From a virus (Monodnaviria; Loebvirae; Hofneiviricota; Faserviricetes; Tubulavirales): DNA of 8,294 nt. The translations under genes and the position numbers were made by a program. This document shows positions 2,624-3,049 of this stretch, piece after piece. The stretch spans positions 1 through 8,294 of the IMG/VR virus record IMGVR_UViG_2541047895_000001. The stretch is one strand, 5' to 3'. Under the pieces are notes generated by a model, which searched no databases, was not told where the DNA came from, and saw only the letters and a list, made by a program, of their open reading frames with translations. Each line of letters starts with the position of its first letter. Within the stretch, counting starts at the first letter, position 1.

Positions 2624-3049
2624 ATGAATCAAATTTACGACAGCTTTCCGTTTCCTTCCCCTGATGGTTTTACCGCAGGTATGACAATGGCGGGATATTT
2701 TATTCACGCCACTGTTATAAATGATGAGGAGTTAAAGCCCGGTGGTACTCATTATAACCCTGAGGCTAAACCCAAATATGCCATTGTTATTGCCTATCCG
2801 TATGAGGACAAAAAATTAAAAGTCCGTCGTGAGGAGCATGAGCGCTTTTCCTGTACTGAGGAGGATTTTAAATTTTTTAATTCATGTCCTGACCTGAAGG
2901 GTAAACCTGTTTATCTCACGGTGGATGTGAATTCATGGGCAACAGGCTCTGAACGTCATGGCGTCTGGTATCGTTTTATTTCCGGCTCCATGAAACGTTT
3001 TGACGGTCAGCCACTGGGTGCACTGCCCGCAGGTAAAGAAAAAGGCTGA
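2624..3049 (+). CDS. pV-position protein (141 aa), putative ssDNA-binding protein
   Basis: Immediately downstream of Rep as gV is in Ff; strong RBS GAGGAG (2610-2615) 8 nt upstream of ATG; size comparable to the Pf1 gene 5 protein; no direct similarity to Ff pV recognised, so function is assigned by synteny only. Confidence 0.45.
   Translation: MNQIYDSFPFPSPDGFTAGMTMAGYFIHATVINDEELKPGGTHYNPEAKPKYAIVIAYPYEDKKLKVRREEHERFSCTEEDFKFFNSCPDLKGKPVYLTVDVNSWATGSERHGVWYRFISGSMKRFDGQPLGALPAGKEKG

What the first reader, a model, noticed from the sequence alone, without database searches (positions are those of the whole stretch)
2624..3049. The pV-position ORF (141 aa) is not recognisably Ff pV
Synteny and a strong RBS argue that this encodes the ssDNA-binding protein every inovirus needs, but at 141 aa it is much longer than Ff pV (87 aa) and I see no alignable similarity to it. 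It could be a divergent OB-fold ssDNA-binding protein (the Pf1 gene 5 protein is of similar size) or an accessory/cargo gene at a variable position.
Basis: inference. Interest (0 to 1): 0.4.

Follow-up and report, generated by a model that had tools for sequence, protein, structure and literature searches.

The report
Orphan OB-fold ssDNA-binding protein of phage
The 141-residue gene is real and is a conserved core gene of an E. coli filamentous prophage; it is predicted to fold like single-stranded-DNA-binding proteins, so it is most likely this phage's counterpart of Ff protein V, which is an ordinary though previously unannotated result.

Summary
Window 2624-3049 (+) is a 141-aa ATG ORF with a GAGGAG ribosome-binding site 8 nt upstream. 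It starts 30 nt after the replication gene and ends 4 nt before two small membrane ORFs and the major-coat gene. It has no detectable sequence similarity to Ff pV, Pf1 gene 5 protein, CTXphi RstB/fs2 ORF104 or VGJphi ORF112.

The window is one 8,282-bp unit of a dif-integrated, tandemly repeated E. coli inovirus prophage. The ORF belongs to a very small family (about 20 clusters among 5.8 billion proteins), filed as phrog_30648 "unknown function" and called "hypothetical protein" in every named record.

Relatives at 26-48% identity, one from a Psychromonadaceae genome, always lie downstream of a Phage_GPA/RstA-type Rep and upstream of coat genes. dN/dS is 0.13-0.40. It is therefore a core gene, not cargo.

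AlphaFold2 (pLDDT 82) gives the order β1-β2-β3-α-β4-β5. All 50 listed Foldseek PDB hits are OB folds (SSB, mitochondrial SSB, PriB, ribosomal proteins such as S17). Most named viral hits are phage SSBs.

Best reading (about 0.75): a sequence-orphan OB-fold ssDNA-binding protein that does the pV job. ssDNA binding itself is inferred, not shown. This is a new member of a known kind, of modest interest.

The parts
2624..3049 (+). ORF141: predicted OB-fold ssDNA-binding protein, the functional counterpart of Ff pV. It is 141 aa, about 16.0 kDa, with calculated pI 6.4 and 20 aromatic residues.
   Evidence: ORF and translation. phrog_30648, full length, E 2e-97. Homologues. AF2 model with pLDDT 82 and OB topology. 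Foldseek hits to SSB, PriB and S17. dN/dS 0.13-0.40.
2610..2615 (+). Shine-Dalgarno sequence GAGGAG, 8 nt upstream of the ORF141 ATG.
   Evidence: Read directly from the sequence.
593..2593 (+). Rolling-circle replication initiator (HUH endonuclease, Phage_GPA / RstA type). It makes the ssDNA that ORF141 is proposed to coat. The mechanical ORF begins at GTG 572; RefSeq starts it at ATG 593.
   Evidence: PF05840 E 2.9e-48 and phrog_91 'nicking at origin of replication' E 2.5e-129. Nearest phage relatives are Vibrio fs2/VFJ Rep, CTXphi RstA and Shewanella Dolos at about 29-33% identity. RefSeq CDS.
3054..3194 (+). 46-aa hydrophobic ORF at the pVII/pIX position. It starts 4 nt after the ORF141 stop, which suggests translational coupling.
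   Evidence: Same order as VFJ orf38/orf38-2. dN/dS 0.09-0.28.
3187..3357 (+). 56-aa hydrophobic ORF at the pVII/pIX position. Its ATG overlaps the stop of the previous ORF (ATGACTGA).
3383..3625 (+). Major coat protein (pVIII-like), 80 aa with a signal peptide.
   Evidence: phrog_1646 'major coat protein' E 1.8e-4. Position as in VFJ.
3641..3668 (+). Rho-independent terminator-like hairpin (7 pairs, 6 of them G-C) followed by a T run. It closes the Rep-ORF141-coat transcription unit, as after gene VIII in Ff and Pf1.
   Evidence: Pf1 has an annotated terminator after its coat gene.

Best explanation
ORF141 most likely encodes the phage's own single-stranded-DNA-binding protein, the functional counterpart of Ff pV, CTXphi RstB and Pf1 gene 5 protein.

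Proposed mechanism:
- It is translated from the same + strand message as the rolling-circle initiator, using a strong ribosome-binding site. That transcription unit ends at a terminator after the major-coat gene.
- The roughly 16-kDa product folds into an OB barrel: β1 20-31, β2 52-62, β3 67-76, helix 79-86, β4 95-102, a long L45 loop 103-115, and β5 116-118.
- It coats the + strand displaced by Rep. This stops conversion back to double-stranded replicative form and holds the genome as a precursor.
- The pI/pIV export machine then strips the protein and replaces it with pVIII.
- By analogy with RstB, it may also help XerCD integration of the single-stranded genome at dif.

Shown here: the gene is real, is under purifying selection, holds a core position, and has a predicted OB fold closest to SSB/PriB-type proteins.

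Inferred: ssDNA binding, cooperativity and the switch role. A further inference is that the conserved aromatic and basic residues form the binding face. F26, K51 and W105 are invariant. W115 and Y116 are conserved in at least 90% of all 19 sequences. K49 is conserved in at least 90% of the 16-sequence alignment. R68 and R111 are conserved in the close set.
For: Position and expression signals:
- GAGGAG lies 8 nt before the ATG. The ORF starts 30 nt after Rep and ends 4 nt before the small coat-position ORFs. The first strong terminator comes only after pVIII, at 3641-3658.
- The order Rep, ORF141, two small ORFs, pVIII, pIII, pVI, pI, pIV matches Vibrio phage VFJ, where the second gene is annotated as ssDNA-binding protein V. 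It also matches the first two genes of Shewanella phage Dolos and of pre-CTX, where that gene is RstB.
- The Rep is most similar to the Reps of exactly those phages.

Core status:
- Distant family members (26-37% identity) sit after a Phage_GPA Rep and before coat genes in three independent inovirus prophages. The host of one is a Psychromonadaceae genome.
- E. coli variants keep the gene at the same place and length.
- dN/dS is 0.13-0.40.

Fold:
- AF2 gives pLDDT 82 and pTM 0.71 with the order β-β-β-α-β-β. A shallower alignment gave much the same strand-helix order at low confidence, with extra C-terminal strands.
- All 50 listed Foldseek PDB hits are OB folds (SSB, mitochondrial SSB, PriB, ribosomal proteins such as S17, editosome OB proteins), with probability about 0.9-1.0 and target-normalised TM up to 0.53.
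- BFVD named hits are mostly phage SSBs, with TM up to 0.60.
- There are sub-threshold but repeated hits to PF17426 'Putative_G5P' in 9 of 19 members, best E 0.006.

No competitor in the element:
- The other unassigned ORFs are 60 aa or shorter, or are membrane-type.

Charge:
- The near-neutral pI (6.4) matches Pf1 g5p, RstB and VGJ ORF112, which are 6.2-6.8.
Against: - There is no significant sequence or profile similarity to any characterised ssDNA-binding protein. This covers Ff gVp, Pf1 g5p, the RstB/fs2 family and VGJ ORF112, Pfam SSB and PDB sequences.
- The fold assignment rests on one AF2 model built from only 19 sequences. The five models range from 64 to 82 pLDDT, and the L45 loop 107-112 is below 50.
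- The Foldseek E-values are marginal (1.6e-3 to 2e-2) and the TM-scores modest at 0.4-0.6.
- An OB fold alone does not prove ssDNA binding.
- The PF17426 score (14.9 bits) is below the 25-bit cut-off.
Confidence: 0.75

Rival explanations
1. ORF141 is an OB-fold protein of the replication module, but its main job is not to coat progeny ssDNA. It could be a Rep accessory factor, a regulator of replication, a mimic or recruiter of the host PriB/SSB primosome, or chiefly an integration factor for XerCD at dif. Host SSB would then cover the single strand.
For: The best structural matches are cellular SSB and PriB, not Ff gVp. The gene always travels with a Phage_GPA-type Rep. Its synonymous divergence tracks Rep more than it tracks pI. 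A review states that RstB, at the same position in CTXphi, is required for integration (PMC3545932). In two distant relatives a further small ORF lies between Rep and the homologue.
Against: Filamentous phages as a rule encode their own ssDNA-coating protein at this position (established knowledge of Ff, Pf1, Pf3 and phiLf; annotations). No other candidate exists in this 8.3-kb genome. The strong RBS and the placement in the highly expressed unit that ends after pVIII fit an abundant, stoichiometric protein.
Confidence: 0.13
2. ORF141 is an accessory or cargo gene (a moron, or a host-interaction or defence gene) sitting at a variable position. It would not be needed for the phage life cycle.
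For: It is annotated everywhere as a hypothetical protein and filed as phrog_30648 'unknown function'. G+C drops from 0.55 in Rep to 0.44 in ORF141. The family is very small.
Against: Position and length are conserved down to 26% identity in different hosts. The gene is present in every variant examined. It is under purifying selection like the core genes. It has no PADLOC match. Its predicted fold is that of ssDNA-binding proteins. Its GC3 (0.38) resembles that of the neighbouring structural genes, so the composition step marks a module boundary rather than an insertion.
Confidence: 0.05
3. ORF141 is a remnant or relative of a papain-like (C1) cysteine peptidase. The idea comes from a local match of 'V-x-N-S-W-x-T-x-x-x-x-G-x-W-Y' to the Asn-Ser-Trp active-site hairpin of aminopeptidase C.
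For: The family profile against PDB sequences gives E 0.0045 to aminopeptidase C (5wdk, 3pw3) over residues 69-132, and E 0.63 to ficin. The single sequence gives E 0.21. A nearly invariant Cys77 sits just before helix 79-86.
Against: The peptidase His aligns to the predicted helix and is not a His in ORF141. Asn103 is replaced in six distant members of the 16-sequence alignment, by Gly, Ala, Asp or Ser. Cys77 is Leu in P0020. No Peptidase_C1 Pfam hit was returned at the E<=10 setting. At 141 aa the protein is too short for a two-domain papain fold. No papain-like structure appears among the 50 listed Foldseek hits.
Confidence: 0.02

Closest known systems
Ff (M13/fd/f1) gene V protein, Pfam PF02303 Phage_DNA_bind
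   Same: The gene lies directly after the replication-initiator gene and before the small coat genes and gene VIII. It is on the same strand and in the same transcription unit, which ends at a terminator after gene VIII. It is a small β-barrel protein of the OB type.
   Different: There is no sequence or profile similarity. It is 141 aa rather than 87 aa. The model has an α-helix between β3 and β4 and a long L12 insertion, as in SSB-type OB folds, whereas gVp is all-β (own knowledge). No gVp structure appears among the 50 listed Foldseek hits. The partner Rep is of the Phage_GPA/RstA type, not Ff pII.
CTXphi RstB / Vibrio fs2 and VFJ ORF104 / Shewanella Dolos ssDNA-binding protein family
   Same: It is the gene immediately downstream of a homologous Phage_GPA/RstA-type Rep (29-33% identity) in phages with the same gene order. 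These are integrative phages, and RstB is described as ssDNA-binding-like and needed for integration (PMC3545932).
   Different: Profile-profile comparison of 19 against 31 sequences gives probability 0.3%. Those proteins are 102-107 aa, against 131-146 aa here.
Pseudomonas phage Pf1 gene 5 protein (144 aa)
   Same: Similar length and near-neutral pI (6.25 vs 6.42). It is likewise encoded just upstream of the small ORFs and the major coat gene.
   Different: There is no sequence similarity (hhalign probability 0.5%). Pf1 g5p ends in a long Pro/Gln/Ala-rich tail, whereas ORF141 has only a short tail after a conserved R-F-D-G-x-P-L motif.
Bacterial and mitochondrial SSB and PriB (SSB-type OB fold)
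   Same: These are the best structural matches of the model. Examples are 3tqy, 8uzt, 3ull, 1ue6, 1eqq and the PriB entries 4apv, 3fhw and 1v1q, with probability about 1.0 and target-normalised TM of 0.45-0.53. They share the β1-β2-β3-α-β4-β5 order.
   Different: Sequence identity is 7-17%, with no Pfam SSB hit. ORF141 has no acidic C-terminal tip; it ends ...PAGKEKG. It is phage-encoded within a replication-assembly operon.
Pfam PF17426 Putative_G5P
   Same: This is the only Pfam family that repeatedly touches ORF141 family members: 9 of 19, best E 0.006, over the β4-L45-β5 region, residues 85-122. Its members are small ORFs next to Rep_1 rolling-circle initiators on small circular DNAs (PMC10378824), which is a comparable replication context.
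   Different: The score of 14.9 bits is below the 25-bit gathering cut-off, and only the C-terminal third aligns. I could not obtain a member sequence for a direct comparison.

Membership tests
Ff gene V protein (PF02303 Phage_DNA_bind) | Sequence match to the PF02303 profile, or to M13 gVp. | tested here: not met
   No PF02303 hit at the E<=10 setting for any of 19 members. hhalign against M13 gVp gives probability 0.3%. The M13 control scores 1.3e-42.
Ff gene V protein (PF02303 Phage_DNA_bind) | An all-β barrel of about 87 aa without an inter-strand α-helix. | tested here: not met
   ORF141 is 141 aa. The model has a helix at 79-86 between β3 and β4. The description of the gVp fold is from my own knowledge.
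Inovirus ssDNA-binding protein (functional class: pV, g5p, RstB) | Encoded just downstream of the rolling-circle initiator and upstream of the coat genes, on the same strand and in the same transcription unit. | tested here: met
   The same order is seen in VFJ, Dolos and pre-CTX.
Inovirus ssDNA-binding protein (functional class: pV, g5p, RstB) | A core gene retained at this position across divergent relatives. | tested here: met
   Relatives at 26-37% identity keep the position. E. coli variants also keep it. dN/dS is 0.13-0.40.
Inovirus ssDNA-binding protein (functional class: pV, g5p, RstB) | A small OB-fold protein. | tested here: met
   This is met at the level of prediction only. AF2 gives pLDDT 82. 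Foldseek top hits are all OB folds.
Inovirus ssDNA-binding protein (functional class: pV, g5p, RstB) | Cooperative, sequence-independent binding to ssDNA, and being required for + strand accumulation. | not testable with these tools
   This needs biochemistry and genetics.
RstB / fs2 ORF104 family | Sequence or profile homology to RstB-like proteins. | tested here: not met
   hhalign of A3 against A5 (31 sequences) gives probability 0.3%. Comparisons with single sequences gave 0.1-0.5%.
Pf1 gene 5 protein | Sequence homology and a Pro/Gln-rich C-terminal tail. | tested here: not met
   hhalign probability 0.5%. The tail is absent, as seen by reading the sequences.
VGJphi ORF112 family (PF06950 DUF1293) | Match to PF06950. 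| tested here: not met
   No hit. hhalign probability 0.3%. The VGJ control scores 7.9e-44.
Cellular SSB / PriB (PF00436) | SSB-type OB fold. | tested here: met
   This is met at the level of prediction. The best Foldseek hits are SSB, mitochondrial SSB and PriB.
Cellular SSB / PriB (PF00436) | Sequence match to PF00436 and, for SSB, an acidic C-terminal interaction tip. | tested here: not met
   No Pfam hit. The C-terminus is ...GALPAGKEKG.
PF17426 Putative_G5P | Score at or above the 25-bit gathering cut-off. | tested here: not met
   14.9 bits, E 0.029. The best among 19 members is E 0.006.
Papain-like peptidase C1 | A conserved catalytic Cys, His and Asn. | tested here: not met
   Asn103, the candidate His residues and Cys77 are not conserved across the family. 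The local hit E 0.0045 is the only support.

The most novel reading that the evidence does not exclude
ORF141 may not descend from the gVp/RstB-type phage proteins at all. It could be a separately recruited SSB/PriB-like OB protein that travels only with Phage_GPA-type Reps in a narrow gammaproteobacterial inovirus lineage. Its conserved, structured C-terminal R-F-D-G-x-P-L motif and Trp-rich L45 hairpin could give it a second activity, for example docking to the host primosome or to XerCD to steer the single-stranded genome between packaging and dif integration.
Probability: 0.12. Interest if true: 0.45.

Novelty: new member of a known kind. Interest (0 to 1): 0.25.

Why it matters
The result assigns a likely function and fold to a protein family that carries none today. 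The family is phrog_30648, called 'hypothetical protein' in every named record read from its two largest sequence clusters. That completes the core gene set of an E. coli dif-integrating inovirus, which is present in about 1% of complete E. coli genomes, often in several copies.

It adds a fifth mutually unalignable sequence family to the known inovirus ssDNA-binding proteins, alongside the gVp, Pf1 g5p, RstB/fs2 and DUF1293 families. This illustrates how fast the function diverges, or is replaced, while its genomic position stays fixed. The practical gain is better annotation of cryptic inoviruses. The general picture of filamentous-phage biology does not change.

Tried and rejected
- Whole-window megablast and ORF141 tblastn against 50,697 GenBank phage records found nothing. 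The phage is known only as a prophage or IMG/VR contig.
- I tested whether the window is UPphi901 by searching for its published primers. Neither is present within 3 mismatches, so this is not that phage.
- Single-sequence and profile searches of PDB sequences gave no SSB-like hit, only the aminopeptidase C motif. I rejected that hit because the catalytic residues are not conserved.
- NCBIfam and PADLOC gave nothing.
- The first AF2 run, with 11 close sequences, was too poor to use (pLDDT 52.6). It became usable only after adding the distant members found by the exhaustive profile search.
- hhalign against Ff gVp, Pf1 g5p, VFJ ORF104, RstB, VGJ ORF112 and a 31-sequence RstB-family profile was negative in every case.
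- The search for related loci with the broad alignment had no stretch conserved enough to search with. With the close alignment it found no GTDB species-representative genome.
- A 108-aa ORF after a Rep_trans gene next to the prophage in strain E300010 seemed a possible PF17426 member. It is a secretin fragment.
- No paper describing this particular phage turned up.

Full report
**What the window is.**
The 8,294-nt window matches the chromosome of E. coli 2015C-4136CT1 end to end at 99.7% identity. There it lies in a head-to-tail array; the fetched stretch shows a complete unit preceded by the 3' part of another.

Its first and last 12 bases are the same (TGCGCATAATGT), so the unit is 8,282 bp. 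The junction between copies is an imperfect dif. The right end of the array is a dif site with one mismatch to the E. coli consensus. In another strain hipA flanks the element. It is therefore a dif-integrated filamentous prophage.

All large genes are on the + strand:
- Rep at 593-2593 (Phage_GPA PF05840, phrog_91)
- ORF141 at 2624-3049
- two small hydrophobic ORFs at 3054-3194 and 3187-3357
- a major-coat-like gene at 3383-3625
- pIII-like at 3685-5298
- pVI-like at 5301-5663
- pI/Zot at 5667-6878
- a pIV secretin at 6988-8217

No GenBank phage record is similar at the DNA level. The published UPphi901 primers are absent.

**Checking the observation.**
The ORF is as described: ATG at 2624, TGA at 3047-3049, 141 aa. 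GAGGAG lies at 2610-2615, 8 nt before the start. The gap after the Rep stop codon is 30 nt. The next ORF starts 4 nt after its stop, and the one after that overlaps its predecessor (ATGACTGA), which suggests coupled translation. The only strong terminator in the region follows the coat gene at 3641-3658. That is the classical arrangement of the abundant-product operon in Ff and Pf1.

The ORF is a real gene:
- RefSeq calls it.
- It matches phrog_30648 over its full length (E 2e-97).
- Homologues of 131-146 aa run from 91% down to 26% identity.
- dN/dS among four E. coli variants is 0.13-0.40, in the range of pI and pVIII.

The lack of similarity to Ff pV is also confirmed.

**How widespread and how well known it is.**
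The family is tiny:
- An exhaustive profile search of 1.84 billion representative proteins found 9.
- A word-indexed profile search of 5.8 billion clusters found 20.
- Every named member read from its two largest sequence clusters is 'hypothetical protein [Escherichia coli]'.
- The gene occurs in 48 of 5,426 complete E. coli genomes. The median is 2 copies and the maximum 11, always on chromosomes.
- It occurs in 19 IMG/VR contigs.
- NCBIfam, Pfam (above threshold) and PADLOC have nothing for it.

**Core gene or cargo.**
I looked up three distant members at 26-37% identity. In each case the gene lies downstream of a Phage_GPA Rep, either directly or after one small ORF. In each case it lies upstream of coat, pVI (DUF2523) and Zot genes in an inovirus prophage.

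The most distant of these is from a Psychromonadaceae genome. Its phage is minimal, with no other candidate for the function apart from two ORFs of 59 and 67 aa upstream of Rep. E. coli variants at about 58% and 90% identity keep the same arrangement.

Among phages in GenBank, the Rep is most similar (29-33% identity) to those of Vibrio fs2/VFJ, CTXphi/pre-CTX (RstA) and Shewanella Dolos. In those phages the gene after Rep is annotated as the ssDNA-binding protein or as RstB. The VFJ gene order is the same as in the window from Rep through pIV.

The drop in G+C from Rep (0.55) to ORF141 (0.44) marks the boundary with the AT-richer downstream genes, not an insertion. The cargo reading is therefore poorly supported.

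**Fold.**
With 11 close sequences AlphaFold2 was unreliable (pLDDT 52.6). After adding the distant members (19 sequences) the best model reached pLDDT 82 and pTM 0.71.

The elements in order are β1 20-31, a short helix 34-37 in a long L12 loop, β2 52-62, β3 67-76, α 79-86, β4 95-102, a loop 103-115 (below pLDDT 50 at 107-112), and β5 116-118. That is the canonical OB order, with the helix between β3 and β4.

Foldseek against the PDB returned OB folds in all 50 listed places. These are bacterial, mitochondrial and apicoplast SSB, PriB, ribosomal proteins such as S17, and editosome OB proteins. E-values run from 1.6e-3 to 2e-2, probability is mostly 0.9-1.0, and target-normalised TM reaches 0.53. 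Against BFVD most of the named hits are phage single-strand-binding proteins, including that of Thermus phage OH3, with TM up to 0.60.

**Sequence-level relations.**
None is significant.
- hhalign of the family profile gave probabilities of 0.1-0.5% against M13 gVp, Pf1 g5p, VFJ ORF104, RstB and VGJ ORF112.
- Against a 31-sequence profile of the RstB/fs2 family built for the purpose, the probability was 0.3%.
- The only recurrent Pfam signal is PF17426 'Putative_G5P'. It appears in 9 of 19 members with best E 0.006, but at 14.9 bits against a 25-bit cut-off, and it covers only β4-L45-β5. Members of that family sit next to Rep_1 rolling-circle initiators on small circular DNAs. That fits the context, but it is only a hint.
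- The family profile also gives E 0.0045 to aminopeptidase C over a 'V-x-N-S-W-x-T...G-x-W-Y' hairpin. The residues that would be catalytic are not conserved and no papain-like structure matches the model. I treat this as a motif coincidence.

**Mechanism proposed.**
Shown here: a real, selected, core-position gene with a predicted SSB-type OB fold, in the operon that also encodes the rolling-circle initiator and the major coat protein.

Inferred from established Ff, Pf1 and CTXphi biology: the protein coats the displaced + strand, blocks complementary-strand synthesis, and delivers the DNA to the pI/pIV export complex, where pVIII replaces it.

The likely binding face is also an inference. 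In the 19-sequence alignment F16, G24, F26, K51, V96, W105 and G113 are invariant. G15, C77, W115, Y116, D127 and G128 are conserved in at least 90% of sequences. The aromatic and basic residues among these lie in β1, at the entry to β2, and in the L45 hairpin, which is where OB-fold proteins usually contact ssDNA. The near-neutral pI of 6.4 is not an objection, because Pf1 g5p, RstB and VGJ ORF112 range from 6.2 to 6.8.

**Verdict.**
ORF141 is best described as a sequence-orphan OB-fold ssDNA-binding protein that fills the pV role for a Phage_GPA-Rep lineage of gammaproteobacterial inoviruses (confidence about 0.75).

It is not a member of the Ff gVp, Pf1 g5p, RstB or DUF1293 sequence families. 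It is a new member of a known functional and structural kind, useful for annotation and unsurprising to a specialist. Interest is 0.25.

Noticed in passing
window 1-30 and 8283-8294; L001 3999-4030 and 12253-12280: The window starts and ends with the same 12 bases, TGCGCATAATGT. The copy-to-copy junction, AGTGCGCATAATGT-GACACGCG-TTATGTTGAAA, is an imperfect dif with a longer central region. A dif site with one mismatch to the E. coli consensus closes the tandem array. The phage therefore integrates at dif, presumably by XerCD, in tandem, as described for YpfPhi and CTXphi (PMC4266046).
   Followed up: partly
L013 524-3495 (E. coli E100341): In some E. coli strains the same phage sits between yoaA and yoaB, not at dif. 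An IS110-family transposase gene ends 2 nt before the Rep gene, and the left regulatory region is missing (query coverage starts at 599). This may be an alternative, IS110-linked way of insertion or mobilisation.
   Followed up: no
window 296-478 (-) and 485-570: A 60-aa reverse-strand ORF (phrog_2503, unknown function) is not annotated in RefSeq for this strain. It faces Rep across a region with repeated TGTTAACA / TTTAACA motifs. This looks like a small repressor with its operators, at the position of RstR in CTXphi.
   Followed up: partly
window 3685-5298, repeat about 4250-4800: The pIII-like ORF carries a very long (SGGS-STSGG)n linker of roughly 180 residues. RefSeq splits this gene into a pseudogene fragment, a reverse-strand ORF and a C-terminal ORF. 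Variants have pIII proteins of different length, from 410 to 537 aa.
   Followed up: no
L012 1434-3249 (E. coli E300010): A second, truncated filamentous element lies between hipA and the prophage. It has a 65-aa ORF, a Rep_trans-type initiator and a 108-aa secretin fragment. It is possibly a remnant or satellite at the same dif locus.
   Followed up: partly
window 593-2593 versus 2624 onward: There is a sharp composition step. Rep has G+C 0.55 and GC3 0.59. ORF141 and the genes after it, through pVI, have GC3 of 0.21-0.47; pI is at 0.45 and pIV rises again to 0.54. Synonymous divergence between variants is about 0.2 for Rep and ORF141 but about 0.5 for pI. Together these suggest modular recombination, with a breakpoint downstream of the coat genes.
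   Followed up: partly
window 2912-3010 (ORF141 residues about 97-129): The motif V-D-V-N-S-W-A-T-G-S-E-R-H-G-V-W-Y resembles the Asn-Ser-Trp hairpin of papain-like peptidases (E 0.0045 to aminopeptidase C with the family profile). The catalytic residues are not conserved, so I judged it coincidental, but the resemblance is unexplained.
   Followed up: partly
L006 4528-4737 and L007 3569-3742: In two distant relatives a small ORF of 57-69 aa with no Pfam match lies between Rep and the ORF141 homologue. It is absent from the window.
   Followed up: no
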